A stretch of 64,000 nt of DNA, taken from contig CAVRDX010000004.1 of NCBI GenBank assembly GCA_963719945.1, positions 64,001-128,000 of the forward strand. Reading direction: 5' to 3'. Source of the DNA: an uncultured Thermoplasmata archaeon (GTDB taxonomy: Archaea; Thermoplasmatota; Thermoplasmata; UBA10834). Within the stretch, counting starts at the first letter, position 1, and every line of letters starts with the position of its first letter. Below the pieces are notes generated by a model, which had not been told where the DNA came from, did not search any database, and was given only the letters and a program-made list of their open reading frames with translations. Shown here in pieces: positions 4,436 to 10,507 of the stretch. Position numbers and translations under genes: made by a program.

Positions 4436-5608
4436 TCATATCCTCGCAACGACCTCTGCTGCGTACTTCCTCGTGTTAACATAACTGGTTGATCCCATCT
4501 GTCGCGCCACGTCCCAGGTCACAAGTCCATCGGATATCGTCATCTCAAGAGCGTTCTCTATCGACCTTGCGGCTTCGGTCAATCCGATGTGGTCCAGCAT
4601 CATCGCGCCGGAGAGGATGAGCGCGCTGGGATTCGCGATGTCCTTGCCTGCGTACTTCGGCGCCGTCCCGTGGACAGGTTCGAAAACCGCGATGCCGTTG
4701 CCGATGTTCGCGCCTGGCGCGAACCCGAGACCCCCGACTTGAGCAGCACATGCATCGGCGAGATAGTCACCGTTGAGGTTCGGGGCTGCCAACACGGAGT
4801 ACTCATCTGGCCGGGTCAGTATCTGCTGGAACATGTTGTCCGCTATCCGGTCGTTCAACAGGATCTTGCCATCGATATCTGCAGAATCTCTTTCTCTTCC
4901 TTCGAATATCGTCACGTCTGAGAATTCGTCCCTTGCGAGCTCGTATCCCCAGTCGCGGAAGGCTCCTTCGGTGTACTTCATTATGTTCCCCTTGTGAACG
5001 AGTGTGACCGACTTCCTTCGATGCCTGATCCCATACTCTATGGCTGCTCGGATCAGCCTCTTCGATGAGGATTCGGATATCGGTTTGAGCCCGAGGCCGG
5101 AGTCCTCAGAAATATCGACACCCAGATCAGATTTGAGGAACTGTCTCAATCTACCCAGTTCCTCTGAACCGCGCTTCCACTCCAGGCCTTTGTAGACGTC
5201 TTCAGTGTTCTCGCGGAATATGACCAGGTTCATCTTCTCAGGATTCTTGACAGGACTAGGAACCCCGCGGAAGTGACGAACCGGTCGGACAGATGAATAG
5301 AGATCCAACACCTGCCTGAGGGTGACGTTCAGGCTCCTTATCCCCCCGCCTACAGGAGTCGTCAATGGTCCTTTGATTGCGATGCCGACCTCCTTTATCC
5401 TGTCTATCGTCGAACGAGGCAGCCATTCGCCAGTAGCATCGAATGATTCCTGTCCGGCCATCAAGTGTTCCCATTTGACCCGGACCCGGTCGACGGTGGT
5501 CTTTTCGATGGCCGCTTCGATCACTGCCTGGGCGGCTATTGTGATATCGGGACCGATCCCGTCACCTGGGATGAACGGTACCAGCAGCTCTCGGTTTTCA
5601 AAAGACAT
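4436..5608 (-). CDS. icd: NADP-dependent isocitrate dehydrogenase
   Basis: [58 protein letters not shown] (KY indicates NADP). Confidence 0.92.
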
Positions 5609-5614
5609 CCATCA

Positions 5615-6139
5615 TCACTCCGTCCTATCGGTTGCCAAAGAGAAACCATTGTGTTTCATTATGTGAGAAGTGAGACCGCCGTCGGATAGCAGAGTCTGCA
5701 TGACCTGCGGGATTCTAGAAGTGGACACTACCGTGCCTGTCGATTCCCGACGGACTTCGCCCTTCGATAGATCCACCTCTATCGTGTCACCGCTGCGCAT
5801 CCAACCTGTTTCACAAGTCATCAGAGGAAGGCCGATGTTGAACGCACTCCTGTAGAATATTCGAGCGAAAGACTCTGCCAGTATTACGGACACGCCAGCA
5901 GCCTTGAGAGCTCTAGGAGCCTGCTCTCGACTCGAACCACATCCGAAATTGCGACCTGCAACTATGATGTCGCCTTGCTCGACCCGATCTGCAAAATCTG
6001 GGTCGATGTCTTCCATCACATGCTCGGCCAGCTTCCGGATGTCATCTATCTTGAACTTGTACCTTCCTGAGATTATGTAGTCGGTGTTGATGTTGTCGTT
6101 AGGATCGAATCTATGAACCCGCCCGCGAAGAACTGTCAA
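5615..6139 (-). CDS. aconitase-family hydro-lyase small subunit (LeuD/HacB-like)
   Basis: [28 protein letters not shown]; atypical substrate loop GRYKFK. Confidence 0.88.
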
Positions 6140-7396
6140 CTACATCACCTCTCGTGGATCAGTTATCATTCCCCTGATCGCGGTCGCCGCAGCTGTCTCT
6201 GGAGAAGAGAGGTAGATGCTGACGTCCCTGTTGTTGCCCATCCGTCCTTTGAAGTTCCGATTCGCGGTCGATAGGACTGTTTCGCCATCAGAGGGTATGC
6301 CAGCATGTGTGCCTACGCAAGGTCCACATCCCGGAGAGACTATGACTGCGCCTGATTTGACCAATTGATGAATTACGCCAGCTTCGATAGCTTTCAGCAA
6401 TATCAGTCTCGAGGCAGGAGCGACGATCAATCGCACTCCCTTCTTCACTGTCCTGTCCTTCAGAATCTTCGCGGCAGCCTCCAGGTCGTTTAATCGCCCA
6501 TTTGTACATGTCCCGATGAAGACCTGATGAACTGGAACATCTGCGAGCTCTGATACGGGGCACACATTATCCACACTGTGTGGCCTCGCAACCACAGGGA
6601 CGATGTCGTCCGCGGAGAAAACCATCTCCCCCTCGACTCGCGCATCCGGATCGCAAGACAAACCGTGTTCTGCAGGGATTCCATGTTCAGAGAACCATTT
6701 GGCGGTGGTAGAGTCGAACTCGAACGGACAGAACTTGGCCCCCATCTCGACGGCCATATTGGCGATGGTCATCCTGCCATCCATGTGCATGGAATCTATC
6801 GCGGAGCCTTTGAACTCAAGGGACTTGTACGTCGCACCATCCGCCGTGAGCTTTCCGATGATGGTCAGTATGAGATCCTTTGCCCCCGTCATCCGACAGA
6901 GTTCCCCATCCACTCGAAGCACCATCGTCTCAGGGACCTTGAACCAGAGTTTGCCTGTGTAAGCAGCGGCAGCGACATCAGCCGATCCGAGCCCAGTTGA
7001 GCAGGCGTTCAATGCACCATAGGTGCATGTGTGAGAATCCGCCCCGACCACGAGGTTTCCCGGGAGCACCTTCCCACGCTCCAGAACAATCTGGTGACAG
7101 ACTCCCTCCCCTATGTCATGCAGAGGGATCGAATGAGAATCCGCAAAGCTACGGATGGCTTTGTGTATCACAGAGACATCCGCTGATGGACATGGTGAAT
7201 TGTGATCTATCACCATGGCCATGCCATGCTTCGTCTTTGGAGAAACGAATCCCATCGAATCGAGCTCCCTCATCATCATCGACGATGTCCCGTCCTGGGA
7301 CATGCAGAAGTCGACGTCCGCGACCACTATATCCCCTGGGCGGCAGTCCGATCCAGAGTGCGATGATAGTACCTTTTCTGCAATGGTCTTTCCCAT
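6140..7396 (-). CDS. aconitase-family hydro-lyase large subunit (LeuC/HacA-like)
   Basis: GKTIAEK, IDH, GVCHQ, GADSHTCT, FIGTCTNGR, GCGPC, STANRNFKGRMG. Confidence 0.9.
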   Translation of the reverse strand: MGKTIAEKVLSSHSGSDCRPGDIVVADVDFCMSQDGTSSMMMRELDSMGFVSPKTKHGMAMVIDHNSPCPSADVSVIHKAIRSFADSHSIPLHDIGEGVCHQIVLERGKVLPGNLVVGADSHTCTYGALNACSTGLGSADVAAAAYTGKLWFKVPETMVLRVDGELCRMTGAKDLILTIIGKLTADGATYKSLEFKGSAIDSMHMDGRMTIANMAVEMGAKFCPFEFDSTTAKWFSEHGIPAEHGLSCDPDARVEGEMVFSADDIVPVVARPHSVDNVCPVSELADVPVHQVFIGTCTNGRLNDLEAAAKILKDRTVKKGVRLIVAPASRLILLKAIEAGVIHQLVKSGAVIVSPGCGPCVGTHAGIPSDGETVLSTANRNFKGRMGNNRDVSIYLSSPETAAATAIRGMITDPREVM

Positions 7397-7413
7397 GTAT
7401 CATCACACTCCTA

Positions 7414-8727
7414 TCAGTGTTTCCACTCGATGTTCGCATCGACCGCAGCAATTCGCTTCTCAATGTCGGCACCAGTATACTCCTTGGATGCGTCACCCTC
7501 CACGATGTTTCTGTAGATCGCGATCAGTTCGGAATCGGTAAGGTTGTCTTTCTTGCGTTCCCCTACCCGATTGACCTCGATCCGAATCCTTTCCACTACA
7601 TCTGCAGAAGCCTCCAGCTCGAGCAGTTTGAGCTTGTGTTTGATGGACGCACTGCCAGAGTGTTTGCCTATGACGATCTGCCTCGAGAGTCCGAGGATTG
7701 ATGGATCGAATGACTCGTAGAGGTGAGGGTCCTTCAGAATGCCATCGACGTGTATCCCGGACTTGTGGGTGAACATGTTTCCACCCACGATCGGATAGTT
7801 CAGCGGGATGCGGAGTCCGCTGGCGTGCTCGACGCCCTTGCAGAGAGGTACTATGTGTTCCACATTGTACTTCGCCAGGCCGTAGTGTGCTCTCAGATTC
7901 ATCACCAGCACCTCAAGTGGAACGTTTCCCGCCCGCTCACCCAGACCATTGATAGTTGTCGATATCCATATCCGACGACCATCGAAAGCAGAAGACGCTT
8001 CACATGCTGAGAGTGCATTCGCGACGGCAAGTCCGAAATCGTTGTGAGCGTGGAATTCCAGGTCGATATTCACGCGTGACATGAGAGAATGGACGAGCCT
8101 TGCGGAAGTCGAAGGTGTCAGAATGCCGATTGTATCGCATATTCTGAACCGATCGGCACCCGCTTCCAGTCCCGCCTTTGCAAATTCGATGAGATAACTC
8201 TCATCCGTCCTCGTAGCATCTCCAGCATTGAAACAGACGTATACTCCATGATCCTTCGCGAACTCGATGCAATCGACCAGACGAGAGAGCTGCTGCTCCC
8301 TTGTGATCTTGAGCTTAGTCGATAGAGAGATGTCGGAAGTATCCGTAGATATGGAGACAGCGTCGACATCATGGCTGATGGAATCGGAGATATCAGCCTT
8401 GACGAGCCTGTTCCAGCCCATTATCGATATGTTTCCCATCTTTGACCGGAGCTGTTTCGCACATTTCCTGTCGCTGTCATTGTAGGTCGCAAATGTCTCG
8501 ATCTGTTCGATCCCCATCTGCTCCAACCCACTGGCGATCATCAACTTGTCAGCACTGGTGAATGCGACTCCTGGCATCTGTTCTCCGTCGCGGCAAGTAG
8601 TGTCAACGATACGCACTTCTCCAAGACTAGGTCTCCCTGAGGCAACAGAATTCATTCCGACGTGCATTCCATCATTCCCACAGGAGCCATGGCTCGATCC
8701 AACGGTCGTTCTGTCTTTCGCGTTCAT
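7414..8727 (-). CDS. DRE-TIM acetyl-CoA condensing enzyme (homocitrate synthase / Re-citrate synthase-like)
   Basis: DTTCRDGEQ, HAHNDFG, GLGERAGN, HKSGIH, IGKHSG; no LeuA regulatory domain. Start placed after GAGGTGAT. Confidence 0.85.
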   Translation of the reverse strand: MNAKDRTTVGSSHGSCGNDGMHVGMNSVASGRPSLGEVRIVDTTCRDGEQMPGVAFTSADKLMIASGLEQMGIEQIETFATYNDSDRKCAKQLRSKMGNISIMGWNRLVKADISDSISHDVDAVSISTDTSDISLSTKLKITREQQLSRLVDCIEFAKDHGVYVCFNAGDATRTDESYLIEFAKAGLEAGADRFRICDTIGILTPSTSARLVHSLMSRVNIDLEFHAHNDFGLAVANALSACEASSAFDGRRIWISTTINGLGERAGNVPLEVLVMNLRAHYGLAKYNVEHIVPLCKGVEHASGLRIPLNYPIVGGNMFTHKSGIHVDGILKDPHLYESFDPSILGLSRQIVIGKHSGSASIKHKLKLLELEASADVVERIRIEVNRVGERKKDNLTDSELIAIYRNIVEGDASKEYTGADIEKRIAAVDANIEWKH

Positions 8728-8915
8728 ATAGATCACCTCGATTCGACAACGCAGGTCGACCACCCCACTATGTCAGCGGTTCCGTCCTGGATAAGGACCA
8801 AACAGCCTCAGGGGTGGCTGGTTGCGTCACAGGAAAGTGTTCGTTCCTGTGATTACCATTATGCCCATTAATTATGCGATATATAGACTATATGTCGCGA
8901 TTATGACTTTCATAA
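8728..8915 (-). promoter_or_regulatory. structured leader and operator-like palindromes upstream of the synthase operon
   Basis: Inverted repeats at 8827-35/8844-52, 8760-66/8811-17 and 8784-88/8794-98; palindromes at 8876-8898 and 8901-8915. Confidence 0.4.
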
Positions 8916-9051
8916 ACGGCATTTGCCCTCTTTTACATCAATATAGTGTTCATATGAATTCAAACATTGCTCGAATTCGGATGCGGGCTTCCGCTATCGA
9001 CAAGAAAAAGGATGATCGAGTGCACGAACTGCAATCGCTCAGATTGACGGC

Positions 9052-10332
9052 TTATCGCCTGGAGAAGATCTCCTTGCCTGGGAATCTGGCCCTCGAACCA
9101 AGTTCCTCCTCTATCCTCAAGAGTCTGTTGTATTTCGCAGTCCTCTCGCCCCTTGAAGGGGCGCCGGTCTTGATCTGGCCAGCGTTTGTGGCGACGCTTA
9201 TGTCACTGATAGTGGTGTCCTCTGTCTCGCCGGATCTGTGCGAGACGACACAATTGTAATCTGATTTTGACGCGAACCTCATAGTCTCGAGTGTCTCTGT
9301 CAGAGTCCCAATCTGATTGACCTTTATCAGAATGGCGTTCGCAATTCCTTCAGCAACACCTTGTTCGAGTATCTTCTTGTTCGTGACGAACACATCGTCG
9401 CCGACAAGCTGGACTCTGCGTCCGAGCCGCTTCGTTATCGTCTTCCAGCCAATCCAATCATCTTCAGACATAGGATCTTCTATTGACACCACAGGGAAGG
9501 ATTTGCAGAGGTCTGCGTACAGATCGACCATCTCCTCCGGGGACAACTGCTCCATCGTGCTCTTCTTGAAAACGTACTTCGAGCCATCGTAGAATTCGCT
9601 GGCAGCCGGATCCATTGCAAGAAATACATTTCGCCCTGGCTTGAGGCCGACTGATTCTGCAGCTTCGACAATCAAGGACAGTGCCTGTTCATTGGAGCCC
9701 AGCTTCGGGGCGAACCCACCTTCGTCTCCGACCGCCGTGCTCAGCTGTTGCTTGCGGAGCAGGCTTTTGAGTGCGTGGAATATCTCGGTCCCCTGTCTAA
9801 GGGACTCTCTGAAGGTCTTGCCGAGCGGGACGACCATGAATTCCTGGAAATCGAGGTTGTTGTCCGCATGTGCCCCACCGTTCAGAATGTTCATCATGGG
9901 AACTGGCAGCGTCTTTGCTTTCACACCGCCGATGTAGCGATAGAGTGGGATTCCGGCATCCGCAGCTGCGGAATGAGCTGCAGCGAGAGATACGCCCAGA
10001 ATGGCATTTGCTCCGAGTTTGGATTTGTTCTCGGTTCCGTCAAGGGAGAGCAGCAGCCCGTCGATGCCCTCCTGGTCACACGGGTCCTTGCCTTTCAACT
10101 TGGGTGCGATCACCTTGTTCACATTATTGACCGCTTTCTGTACACCTTTGCCCATGAAACGCGCCTTGTCCCCGTCCCTCAGCTCGACGGCTTCGCGCAC
10201 ACCGGTCGAGGCGCCTGATGGCACAGCGGCCCGTCCGATCCTGTTACTGGAGAGAATCACGTCGACTTCGACCGTGGGATTGCCTCTGGAATCGAGTATC
10301 TCTCTGGCCTTTACAGACTTGATATTAGACAT
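9052..10332 (-). CDS. eno: enolase
   Basis: [47 protein letters not shown]. True start is MSNIK. Confidence 0.97.
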
Positions 10333-10507
10333 CGTTATCGTGAGGAGGTTAAGAGGTGTCCATGATAAAAACGATTGCAGGAGAGGGCAAATAGGCGATG
10401 CCAGGCACCCTGATTGGGTCAATCAACTCGAAAAACATGAATGGCCCGGGAGACAGGAGGCTTTTCTCCTCCCGGGAAATGGATTAATAAGAGGTTTCTT
10501 CGTCAAT

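What the first reader, a model, noticed from the sequence alone, without database searches (positions are those of the whole stretch)
4436..8727. Synthase + LeuCD-like + true Icd operon: possible Re-citrate synthase with a two-subunit aconitase
Seen: four genes separated by 0-17 nt. The dehydrogenase has isocitrate-specific residues (RSLNV) and NADP residues (APKY), unlike LeuB or homoisocitrate dehydrogenase. The synthase lacks the LeuA allosteric domain. The small-subunit loop is GRYKFK. Established: a basic residue in this loop (YLRT in methanogen homoaconitase) favours tricarboxylate substrates, and Re-citrate synthases are NifV/LeuA-family enzymes. Inference: the operon converts acetyl-CoA + oxaloacetate to 2-oxoglutarate using a LeuCD-type pair as aconitase. 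Pipelines would mislabel it as leucine or lysine synthesis; no lysWXYZ or leuB is present in the window.
Basis: partly seen in the sequence, partly recalled or inferred. Interest (0 to 1): 0.7.

Follow-up and report, generated by a model that had tools for sequence, protein, structure and literature searches.

The report
Archaeal citrate-to-2-oxoglutarate operon, split aconitase
Four tightly packed genes in an uncultured Thermoplasmata archaeon most likely make 2-oxoglutarate from oxaloacetate and acetyl-CoA, using a leucine-pathway-like citrate synthase, a two-subunit leucine-pathway-like aconitase and an ordinary isocitrate dehydrogenase; this layout is common in anaerobic bacteria and routinely mislabelled, and only the synthase is unusual here.

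Summary
On the minus strand lie a short HMGL-type synthase (7414-8727), a LeuC-like large subunit (6140-7396), a LeuD-like small subunit with loop GRYKFK (5615-6139) and a true NADP-isocitrate dehydrogenase (4436-5608), with gaps of 17, 0 and 6 nt.

- The genome (87% complete) has no Si-citrate synthase and no AcnA/AcnB. It has a separate leuABCD operon.
- Among 401 Thermoplasmata genomes, synthase orthologues occur only in this order, where PF00285 is almost never found (1 of 48).
- Four relatives lack synthase, large-subunit and Icd orthologues together.
- 80 bacterial loci were fetched through the small-subunit loop motif alone. Most of those with enough flanking DNA read Re-citrate synthase, large subunit, small subunit, Icd.

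So the LeuCD-like pair belongs to a distinct family that sits beside Icd and is labelled IPM dehydratase in databases.

The synthase is its own deep lineage. It carries the Trp/Asn active-site signature of context-verified Re-citrate synthases, but has Gly where the family has a near-invariant Glu.

The idea is not new: Firmicutes Re-CS operons are known, putative two-subunit aconitases have been curated, and this scan has already reported the module in other Thermoplasmata genomes. No enzyme assay of the split aconitase was found. The sources of oxaloacetate and the sink for 2-oxoglutarate remain unidentified.

The parts
7414..8727 (-). Short LeuA/NifV-family synthase (437 aa from ATG 8727; the frame is open back to GTG 8763). 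Proposed citrate synthase of the Re type.
   Evidence: HMGL-like + HCS_D2 and no LeuA regulatory domain. It falls below every NCBIfam equivalog cut-off. The best solved structure is Sulfolobus homocitrate synthase 6ktq at 239 bits. It forms its own deep lineage. Active-site columns: Trp, Cys, Asn, and Gly in place of the family Glu. SD-like GAGGTGAT precedes ATG 8727.
6140..7396 (-). LeuC/HacA-type large subunit (418 aa) of a two-subunit aconitase-family hydro-lyase. Proposed aconitase large subunit.
   Evidence: PF00330. It passes NF001614, TIGR02086 and TIGR01343 at subfamily level but falls below the LEU2 and HacA equivalog cut-offs. Cys-containing motifs GTCTNGR and GCGPC, where family members ligate the Fe-S cluster (recalled knowledge), are present. 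It falls in a 99* clade with operon-linked bacterial and f2 large subunits, apart from both paralogues in its own genome.
5615..6139 (-). LeuD/HacB-type small subunit (174 aa) with loop [13 protein letters not shown]. Proposed aconitase small subunit.
   Evidence: PF00694 and TIGR02087 at subfamily level. The loop is conserved as GRYKF[K/R/S] in all 26 Thermoplasmata orthologues read, and as G[RK][YH]KFK in f2 and in the bacterial loci.
4436..5608 (-). NADP-dependent isocitrate dehydrogenase (390 aa).
   Evidence: NF005425 scores 520.9 against a cut-off of 490. PDB 2iv0 scores 505 bits, and E. coli IDH 424 bits. The RSLNV and APKY motifs are present.
8728..9051 (-). Intergenic leader and probable promoter region between enolase and the synthase: an AT-rich TATA-like stretch (about 8870-8960) and a hairpin at 8828-8851.
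   Evidence: Sequence. The fold has z = -2.84. There is no Rfam match. It is conserved only within the genus; the hairpin is kept in L012/L019 with one compensatory change.
9052..10422 (-). Enolase, the conserved upstream neighbour. It is probably a separate transcription unit.
   Evidence: Pfam Enolase_N/C. Synteny is kept in about 30 related MAG species.

Best explanation
The four genes form an anabolic oxidative TCA branch. The synthase condenses acetyl-CoA with oxaloacetate to give citrate; it is presumably Re-specific, like its LeuA/NifV-family relatives. The LeuCD-like heterodimer, an Fe-S hydro-lyase with a KFK loop in the small subunit, isomerises citrate through cis-aconitate to isocitrate. 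Icd oxidises isocitrate to 2-oxoglutarate and NADPH. Shown here: gene identities, operon structure, absence of the canonical enzymes, and the phylogenetic and contextual links. Inferred: substrates, stereochemistry and direction of flux. The large subunit, small subunit and Icd are orthologues of a widespread bacterial module. The synthase is a separate archaeal lineage with a Re-citrate-synthase-like Trp/Asn pocket. In this family of genomes the usual Glu on strand beta5 is Gly, and an Asp/Glu appears on beta4.
For: (1) Icd is a bona fide NADP-IDH, so isocitrate must be supplied. The genome has no AcnA/AcnB and only three LeuC-type large subunits, and no PF00285. (2) A complete leuA(551 aa)-leuC-leuD(YLVT)-leuB operon and a third scattered set exist elsewhere, so this set is not needed for leucine. 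(3) Across 401 Thermoplasmata genomes, synthase orthologues (54% identity or more) occur only in families f1 and f2. PF00285 is found in 1/45 f1 and 0/3 f2 genomes, against 265/401 overall. (4) f1 genomes without the synthase (G018, G040 at 98% complete in one contig, G204, G328) also lack Icd and large-subunit orthologues. G040 keeps a 111-aa Icd remnant. (5) The order eno-SYN-LRG-SML-ICD is kept in about 30 MAG species at 62-90% identity. (6) 80 bacterial loci were fetched only through the small-subunit loop motif. Most of those with enough flanking DNA read clade-II Re-CS, LRG, SML, Icd, with either of two Icd subfamilies. They include S. wolfei, Thermosyntropha, Carboxydothermus and Desulforamulus; the cultured Pelotomaculum loci L230 and L244 show Re-CS, LRG and SML but no Icd. 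(7) In f2 the KFK pair sits beside the other Icd subfamily. (8) Operon-linked large subunits form one clade (99*), apart from LeuC paralogues and from fused aconitases. (9) The synthase has Trp and Asn at two active-site columns, as do all 29 context-verified clade-II Re-CS. The 18 cyanobacterial and alphaproteobacterial sequences that I took to be NifV have Gly at the Asn column. LeuA has Leu/Ser. (10) Clade-II Re-CS is verified genetically in H. modesticaldum and is reported as confirmed in C. difficile and D. mccartyi (PMC12016533).
Against: No enzyme of this operon or of the KFK pair has been assayed, as far as I could find. The synthase lies outside the NifV+Re-CS-II clade (98*) and is only about 31% identical to the presumed C. 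kluyveri-type proteins, so its specificity cannot be transferred by orthology. All 30 f1 sequences have Gly where the family has a near-invariant Glu; from memory of the LeuA/HCS literature, that Glu is part of the catalytic base. The genome search found no PEP carboxylase, PEPCK, PycB or LDH-type MDH to make oxaloacetate, and no GDH or GOGAT to use 2-oxoglutarate. The genome is only 87% complete. The complementary distribution amounts to about one evolutionary event, not many independent ones.
Confidence: 0.75

Rival explanations
1. The synthase and LeuCD-like pair carry out 2-oxoacid chain elongation (homocitrate/homoaconitate for lysine or a cofactor, or citramalate for isoleucine), and Icd is merely co-located.
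For: The best solved-structure match is a lysine-pathway homocitrate synthase (6ktq). The best NCBIfam hits are IPMS and NifV models. The small subunit scores highest on HacB2_Meth, though below its cut-off.
Against: The columns that in T. thermophilus homocitrate synthase hold His72 and Arg133 are Trp and Cys here; my recollection is that those residues bind the distal carboxylate of 2-oxoglutarate. The NifV-like sequences have Gly where this protein and the Re-CS have Asn. No mcrA was found, so coenzyme B is not needed. A third synthase/LeuCD/LEU3-type dehydrogenase set is available for such roles. The dehydrogenase in the operon is isocitrate-type, not LEU3-type. The KFK pair is linked to Icd of two different subfamilies.
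Confidence: 0.08
2. The LeuCD-like pair and Icd do convert citrate to 2-oxoglutarate, but the f1 synthase is not the citrate source. It may be inactive or have another substrate, and citrate may be imported or made otherwise.
For: The family Glu is Gly in all f1 sequences. In f2 the synthase orthologue stands alone, away from the pair and Icd. No oxaloacetate-forming enzyme was found.
Against: The synthase is conserved at 62-90% identity across about 30 species and stays first in the operon, 17 nt from the large subunit. It is absent together with the other genes. The metal and substrate motifs DTTCRDGEQ, HAHND and CDTIG are intact. An acidic residue appears on the neighbouring strand exactly where the Glu is lost.
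Confidence: 0.08
3. The module runs in the reductive direction: 2-oxoglutarate to isocitrate to citrate, then cleavage by a reversible synthase to supply acetyl-CoA and oxaloacetate.
For: Citrate synthase reversal is known for Si-type enzymes in some anaerobes (recalled knowledge). No oxaloacetate-forming carboxylase was found here.
Against: I found no report of reversal for LeuA-family synthases. In Firmicutes and Dehalococcoides the same module serves oxidative, anabolic 2-oxoglutarate synthesis (PMC12016533, PMC4720418). I did not test for a 2-oxoglutarate synthase.
Confidence: 0.04

Closest known systems
Clade-II Re-citrate synthase operons of Firmicutes (H. modesticaldum HM1_2993 / Thermoanaerobacter / C. 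difficile type), in the form synthase - split LeuCD-like pair - Icd seen in Syntrophomonas, Thermosyntropha, Carboxydothermus and Desulforamulus
   Same: The gene order is the same. The large subunit (52-57% identity), small subunit (50-57%, same KFK loop) and long-type Icd (51-56%) are orthologous. The synthase has the same Trp/Asn columns. These genes carry the same mislabels in databases: IPM dehydratase, homocitrate synthase, and even 'homoaconitate hydratase' for the synthase.
   Different: The synthase here is only 42-47% identical and branches outside the NifV+Re-CS-II clade. It has Cys for Leu in DTTLRDGEQ, Cys for Ser, and Gly for the family Glu, with Asp/Glu on beta4. The host is an archaeon.
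Re-CS - fused aconitase (about 640 aa, NF005558/TIGR01342 type) - Icd operons of Peptostreptococcaceae and other Clostridia
   Same: The same three-step logic and the same synthase-aconitase-Icd order.
   Different: There the aconitase is one polypeptide with a longer loop, TTDHIMPSNAKLLPYRSNIP. It is a separate deep clade from the split pair, and the Icd is the short subfamily.
Methanocella putative two-subunit aconitase (Mtc_1230/1231) with a 'novel citrate synthase' (Mtc_1389), from manual curation cited in PMC6046458
   Same: A published proposal that an archaeon lacking annotated TCA genes uses a two-subunit aconitase and a non-canonical citrate synthase beside Icd.
   Different: I could not fetch those sequences, so I do not know whether they are KFK-type or related to this synthase. 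The genes there are not described as one operon.
Methanogen isopropylmalate isomerase and homoaconitase (M. jannaschii MJ0499/MJ1277 and MJ1003/MJ1271; PDB 3vba, 2pkp)
   Same: The same two-subunit architecture and fold family. The small subunit shows 151 and 129 bits to 3vba and 2pkp. Specificity resides in the same small-subunit loop (established knowledge, recalled).
   Different: The loop is YKFK instead of YLVY or YLRT. The scores fall below the equivalog cut-offs. The genomic partner is Icd, not LeuB or AksF.
C. kluyveri / S. aciditrophicus-type (clade I) Re-citrate synthase
   Same: The same superfamily and the same proposed reaction.
   Different: Only about 30-32% identity and about 100 bits to the roughly 460-aa Clostridiaceae proteins that I take to be this type. 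PMC12016533 gives about 28% identity between clades I and II.

Membership tests
Re-citrate synthase, clade II (HM1_2993 / C. difficile / D. mccartyi type) | HMGL-like TIM barrel plus HCS_D2 domain, with no LeuA regulatory domain | tested here: met
   Pfam.
Re-citrate synthase, clade II (HM1_2993 / C. difficile / D. mccartyi type) | Branches inside the clade that holds the context-verified members | tested here: not met
   It lies outside the 25-row NifV+Re-CS-II clade (98*) in the IQ-TREE mixture-model tree. FastTree puts it on the LeuA side. It is a deep lineage of its own.
Re-citrate synthase, clade II (HM1_2993 / C. difficile / D. mccartyi type) | Active-site columns that separate Re-CS from NifV in my alignment: Trp at the TtHCS His72 column and Asn at the Ser135 column | tested here: met
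   Trp and Asn here. Asn in 29/29 context-verified Re-CS and in 17 Dehalococcoidia. Gly in the 18 sequences I took to be NifV. This rule is empirical and made here, not published.
Re-citrate synthase, clade II (HM1_2993 / C. difficile / D. mccartyi type) | Family-wide Glu on strand beta5 (xxNAED) | tested here: not met
   CFNAGD in 30/30 f1 sequences. f2 keeps CFNAED.
Re-citrate synthase, clade II (HM1_2993 / C. difficile / D. mccartyi type) | Oxaloacetate + acetyl-CoA activity, Re-face stereochemistry, oxygen sensitivity | not testable with these tools
   Needs enzymology.
Re-citrate synthase, clade I (C. kluyveri type) | Close sequence relationship to the roughly 460-aa clostridial enzymes | tested here: not met
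   About 30-32% identity and about 100 bits. That those proteins are clade I is my inference from their length and taxon.
Homocitrate synthase (lysine type, TIGR02146; NifV, TIGR02660) | Score above the equivalog cut-off | tested here: not met
   301 bits against 413.6, and 368 against 462.9.
KFK-loop split aconitase-family hydro-lyase (unnamed family defined here) | Small-subunit loop NTDYIISG[RK][YH]KF[KRS] | tested here: met
KFK-loop split aconitase-family hydro-lyase (unnamed family defined here) | Large subunit inside the operon-linked clade, apart from LeuC and other paralogues | tested here: met
   99* clade of 17 rows.
KFK-loop split aconitase-family hydro-lyase (unnamed family defined here) | Adjacent to an isocitrate dehydrogenase gene | tested here: met
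   Window, f2, and most of the 80 bacterial loci that extend far enough.
KFK-loop split aconitase-family hydro-lyase (unnamed family defined here) | Citrate/cis-aconitate/isocitrate isomerase activity | not testable with these tools
   I found no assay in the papers searched.
3-isopropylmalate dehydratase (LEU2/leud) and methanogen homoaconitase (HacA/HacB) equivalogs | Score above the equivalog cut-off | tested here: not met
   Large subunit: TIGR02083 411.6 against 610.7, and NF040615 410.7 against 550. Small subunit: TIGR02084 164 against 246, and NF040625 185 against 230.
NADP-dependent isocitrate dehydrogenase (NF005425) | Score above the equivalog cut-off, with the Ser-x-Asn substrate motif and Lys-Tyr cofactor motif | tested here: met
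   520.9 against 490. RSLNV and APKY are present. 2iv0 scores 505 bits.

The most novel reading that the evidence does not exclude
The f1 Thermoplasmata synthase is a third, independently recruited lineage of Re-type citrate synthase within the LeuA/NifV superfamily. Its catalytic carboxylate has moved from strand beta5 (Glu to Gly) to strand beta4 (Ala/Ser/Pro to Asp/Glu). The KFK-loop LeuCD pair is a true, never-assayed class of aconitase that serves as the only aconitase in many anaerobic bacteria and archaea.
Probability: 0.4. Interest if true: 0.6.

Novelty: new variant of a known kind. Interest (0 to 1): 0.42.

Why it matters
Metabolic reconstructions of uncultured anaerobes often report that citrate synthase and aconitase are missing and infer glutamate auxotrophy or a reductive route. 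This happened for Methanocella in 2011 (PMC3146512).

A cheap sequence rule would correct many such calls and many database names: the KFK loop in the small subunit, an adjacent Icd, and the Trp/Asn columns in the synthase.

Two biochemical points are open and easy to test:
- whether a LeuCD-type heterodimer can act as a dedicated aconitase;
- whether a LeuA-family synthase can work with its conserved Glu replaced by Gly and an acidic residue on the next strand.

The pathway logic itself is not new.

Tried and rejected
- **Founding Re-CS papers not held.** I tried Li et al. 2007 (PMC1913417), Marco-Urrea et al. 2011 (PMC3187404) and a homocitrate synthase structure paper (PMC2791007). The residue roles of TtHCS His72/Arg133/Glu137 therefore rest on my memory. 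Only the alignment to 2ztj is a tool result.
- **No characterised reference sequences in the trees.** I could not obtain CKL_0973, SYN_02536, cbdbA1708, CD0832, HM1_2993, MJ0503 or A. vinelandii NifV as sequences. The trees use context-labelled and taxon-labelled genomic loci instead.
- **Large tree abandoned.** An IQ-TREE mixture-model tree of 125 synthases did not finish on one CPU. I used FastTree on 125 rows and IQ-TREE on 48 rows. The two disagree on which side the window's clade joins, so I call its position unresolved.
- **Kinship with fused aconitase rejected.** The idea that the split pair is closer to the fused clostridial aconitase does not hold. NF005558 scores are alike for all three large subunits in this genome (336, 319, 331 bits), and the fused form is a distant clade.
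- **Loop equivalence with Arg580 of mitochondrial aconitase not claimed.** Loop lengths differ, and no structure superposition was possible.
- **Rfam scan of the leader** found nothing.
- **Nearest synthase neighbours are uninformative.** P0125 stayed uncharacterised: no name, context not looked up. The contexts of P0126 and P0129 told nothing.
- **Not run:** Complex prediction, structure prediction, or read mapping. A pass for a LeuC/LeuD-type pair would follow from likeness to solved structures, and the tools return no coordinates with which to test the beta4/beta5 idea.

Full report
**What is there.**
The window is contig C4:64001-128000 of a 1.78-Mb, four-contig genome that is 87% complete. 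Related records name it an uncultured Thermoplasmata archaeon. Four ORFs follow each other on the minus strand:
- a synthase at 7414-8727;
- a LeuC-like large subunit at 6140-7396;
- a LeuD-like small subunit at 5615-6139;
- a dehydrogenase at 4436-5608.

The gaps are 17, 0 and 6 nt. The synthase frame is open back to GTG 8763. However, ATG 8727 follows GAGGTGAT by five bases, orthologues start at the same place with GTG, and database orthologues are 437 aa long.

Upstream lies enolase, separated by about 325 nt of AT-rich DNA with TATA-like stretches. Downstream, a Na+/H+ exchanger converges on the operon.

**Gene identities.**
- **Synthase.** It has HMGL-like and HCS_D2 domains only. It stays below every NCBIfam equivalog cut-off for IPMS, NifV, lysine-type HCS and citramalate synthase.
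- **Large and small subunits.** They pass only subfamily-level models (NF001614, TIGR02086, TIGR02087). They fail the LEU2, leud, HacA and HacB equivalogs.
- **Dehydrogenase.** It passes the NADP-IDH equivalog NF005425 (520.9 against 490). It matches A. fulgidus IDH 2iv0 at 505 bits and E. coli IDH at 424 bits. It carries RSLNV and APKY.

**The rest of the genome.**
- No PF00285 citrate synthase was found.
- PF00330 finds three LeuC-type large subunits and no AcnA/AcnB.
- There are three HMGL synthases and three Iso_dh proteins.
- One set is a classical operon: leuA (551 aa, with regulatory domain), leuC, leuD (loop YLVT) and leuB.
- A second set is scattered: a 401-aa synthase, a LeuCD pair with loop GRYLDN, and a LEU3_arch-type dehydrogenase.
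- The third set is the operon under study, the only one with a true Icd.
- No mcrA was found, so coenzyme B synthesis does not explain the extra sets.

**Distribution in the class.**
Among 401 Thermoplasmata genomes, synthase orthologues (54% identity or more) occur only in the window's family f1 and its sister family f2 (3/3). The next best hits drop to 44%. In the same sample, PF00285 is found in 265 genomes but in only 1/45 of f1 and 0/3 of f2.

Four f1 genomes lack a synthase orthologue: G018 (96% complete), G040 (98%, one contig), G204 and G328. They also lack orthologues of Icd and of the large subunit, and keep only the two paralogous sets. G040 retains a 111-aa fragment that is 51% identical to the Icd C-terminus. 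The genes are thus present or absent together. These patterns are clear, but they rest on very few independent events.

**The hydro-lyase pair belongs to a discrete family that sits beside Icd.**
All 26 Thermoplasmata small subunits read carry [12 protein letters not shown][K/R/S]. While looking at relatives of a Bacillota synthase, I found Syntrophomonadaceae loci with a synthase, a large subunit 53% identical to ours, a small subunit 50-54% identical with the same loop, and an Icd 53-54% identical.

I then scanned species-representative genomes with an alignment of small subunits. The scan used only the peptides NTDYIISG and [RK][YH]KF[KS][TI][LD]D[MI]. Of the 80 best loci, most of those with enough flank read clade-II Re-citrate synthase, large subunit, small subunit, Icd. 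About 60 of the 80 show the full row. Most of the rest are cut by contig ends; a few show no Icd or a synthase on the opposite strand.

Cultured organisms with the full row include:
- Syntrophomonas wolfei subsp. methylbutyratica;
- Thermosyntropha lipolytica;
- Carboxydothermus islandicus;
- Desulforamulus aeronauticus;
- Desulfovirgula thermocuniculi.

The two cultured Pelotomaculum loci (L230, L244) show synthase, large and small subunit, but no Icd within the stretch fetched.

The Icd in these loci is of either of two subfamilies. In the f2 archaea the KFK pair sits beside the short Icd subfamily, while the synthase orthologue stands alone elsewhere. Linkage to Icd across a non-orthologous replacement of Icd is good evidence that the pair makes isocitrate.

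In a tree, the operon-linked large subunits form one clade (99*). That clade is separate from both paralogues of this genome, from their f2 counterparts, and from the fused 640-aa clostridial aconitases. Databases name these proteins 3-isopropylmalate dehydratase subunits.

**The loop argument.**
Against the solved M. jannaschii small subunits, YKFK aligns with YLVY (IPMI, 3vba) and YLRT (homoaconitase, 2pkp). The invariant Lys stands at the Leu position. The position of the homoaconitase Arg is Phe. The conserved signature and its context are the stronger evidence.

**The synthase.**
A search of 1.84 billion cluster representatives shows an isolated clade. Its own representative is at 68% identity, the next is at 45%, and the rest are at 43% or less.

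One near neighbour at 43% is a Symbiobacterium/Bacillota protein followed by a fused aconitase. Its relatives include several groups:
- Peptostreptococcaceae, Thermoanaerobacterium, Desulfitobacterium and Dehalococcoidia;
- Methanomassiliicoccales;
- cyanobacterial and alphaproteobacterial sequences that I took to be NifV from their taxa, without checking for neighbouring nif genes.

This corresponds to the Re-citrate synthase clade that PMC12016533 describes for H. modesticaldum (gene deletion), Thermoanaerobacter, C. difficile and, more distantly, D. mccartyi. That paper separates it from the C. kluyveri/S. aciditrophicus clade at about 28% identity.

The window's synthase is 42-47% identical to the first clade. 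It is about 31% identical to roughly 460-aa Clostridiaceae proteins that I take to be the second clade. Trees place it as its own deep lineage. It falls outside the NifV+Re-CS-II clade (98*) with the mixture model, and on the LeuA side with FastTree. I call the position unresolved. Within that clade the NifV-like sequences and Re-CS interleave, so specificity cannot be read from the tree in any case.

**Active-site columns.**
I used the alignment to T. thermophilus homocitrate synthase 2ztj and my recollection that His72 and Arg133 hold the distal carboxylate of 2-oxoglutarate. On that basis I compared columns across groups.

| Column (TtHCS numbering) | This clade | Context-verified Re-CS | NifV-like | LeuA | Lysine-type HCS |
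|---|---|---|---|---|---|
| His72 | Trp | Trp | Trp | Leu | His |
| Arg133 | Cys | Ser | Ser (alpha: Ala/Ser) | Glu | Arg |
| Ser135 | Asn | Asn (29/29) | Gly (18/18) | Ser | Ser (TtHCS), Thr (Sulfolobus) |

The 17 Dehalococcoidia and the Methanomassiliicoccales homologues also have Asn at the Ser135 column. The pocket thus looks like that of the shorter-substrate (oxaloacetate) enzymes. This supports the Re-citrate synthase reading independently of the tree, although the rule is empirical and made here.

One feature is odd. All 30 f1 sequences read CFNAGD where nearly every other family member sampled has Glu-Asp. From memory, that Glu is part of the catalytic base in LeuA and HCS. The same 30 sequences have Asp or Glu in ST[DE]TS on the preceding strand, where other members have Ala, Ser, Pro or Val. 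The f2 orthologue keeps CFNAED and SIATS. A relocation of the carboxylate to the neighbouring strand is a reasonable guess, but it rests on one correlated change and could not be checked in three dimensions.

**Loose ends.**
- Glutamine synthetase is present.
- No GOGAT was found and no convincing GDH.
- No PEP carboxylase of either type, no PEPCK of either type, no fourth HMGL protein that could be PycB, and no LDH-type malate dehydrogenase were found.
- A malic enzyme is present.

The source of oxaloacetate and the fate of 2-oxoglutarate are therefore not established. Aspartate transamination would provide both, but I did not test that. The genome is incomplete.

**What is known already.**
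- Re-citrate synthase, aconitase and Icd as an anabolic branch is established in Clostridia, Dehalococcoides and heliobacteria (PMC12016533, PMC4720418).
- D. mccartyi IDH lies in an operon of putative TCA genes (PMC4720418).
- For Methanocella, the TCA branch was first reported as missing apart from Icd (PMC3146512). Manual curation later proposed a two-subunit aconitase and a novel citrate synthase (PMC6046458, citing Lyu and Lu 2015).
- This scan has already reported the same module in other Thermoplasmata genomes and in other phyla. Those notes agree with what I found independently here.
- I found no enzymatic characterisation of the split pair.

**Verdict.**
The large subunit, small subunit and Icd are new members of a widespread, mislabelled module. 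The synthase is a variant lineage with an altered active site. The finding has moderate interest, mainly as an annotation rule and as two simple enzymology questions.

Noticed in passing
window 8727-8880 (minus strand); hairpin 8828-8851: The leader upstream of the synthase folds better than its shuffles (z = -2.84) and holds a hairpin CACAGGAA/UUCCUGUG. The hairpin is kept in the two same-genus loci, with one A-U to G-C change and one C-G to U-G change. There is no Rfam match. Outside the genus only a GGCAYAATGAT element is shared.
   Followed up: partly
G000 C3:202113-203318; C4:314116-315878; C1:549150-550160: The genome holds a third, scattered set: a 401-aa short synthase, a LeuCD-like pair with loop GRYLDN, and a LEU3_arch-type dehydrogenase. 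Its role is unassigned. No mcrA was found, so coenzyme B is unlikely; citramalate or lysine-type chain elongation are candidates.
   Followed up: partly
whole genome G000: No GDH, GOGAT, PEP carboxylase (two types), PEPCK (two types), PycB or LDH-type malate dehydrogenase was found. Glutamine synthetase and a malic enzyme are present. How oxaloacetate is made and how 2-oxoglutarate is aminated is open (genome 87% complete).
   Followed up: partly
G040:C1:1401795-1402085: A one-contig, 98%-complete relative lacks orthologues of the operon genes but keeps a 111-aa open frame 51% identical to the Icd C-terminus. It looks like a deletion remnant.
   Followed up: no
L096-L103 (Methanomassiliicoccaceae / Methanomethylophilaceae MAGs): These methanogen-lineage genomes carry a synthase 51-54% identical to clade-II Re-citrate synthases, with the same Trp/Asn columns, but no aconitase or Icd gene within 5 kb. 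They may also use a Re-citrate synthase.
   Followed up: no
L064-L068, L075 (Intestinibacter and related): Between the Re-CS-like synthase and Icd there is only a short match (about 140 aa) to the C-terminal domain of the fused aconitase, and no large-subunit match. This could be a degraded or rearranged aconitase gene, or a separate small-domain gene.
   Followed up: no
L085 (Dehalococcoidia MAG): One Dehalococcoidia synthase also has Gly in place of the family Glu (VNAGD), without an acidic residue on the preceding strand.
   Followed up: no
P0006, P0105, P0276 (database names): NCBI records name orthologues and relatives of the synthase 'homoaconitate hydratase'. That is the wrong enzyme class for an HMGL-type synthase.
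   Followed up: no
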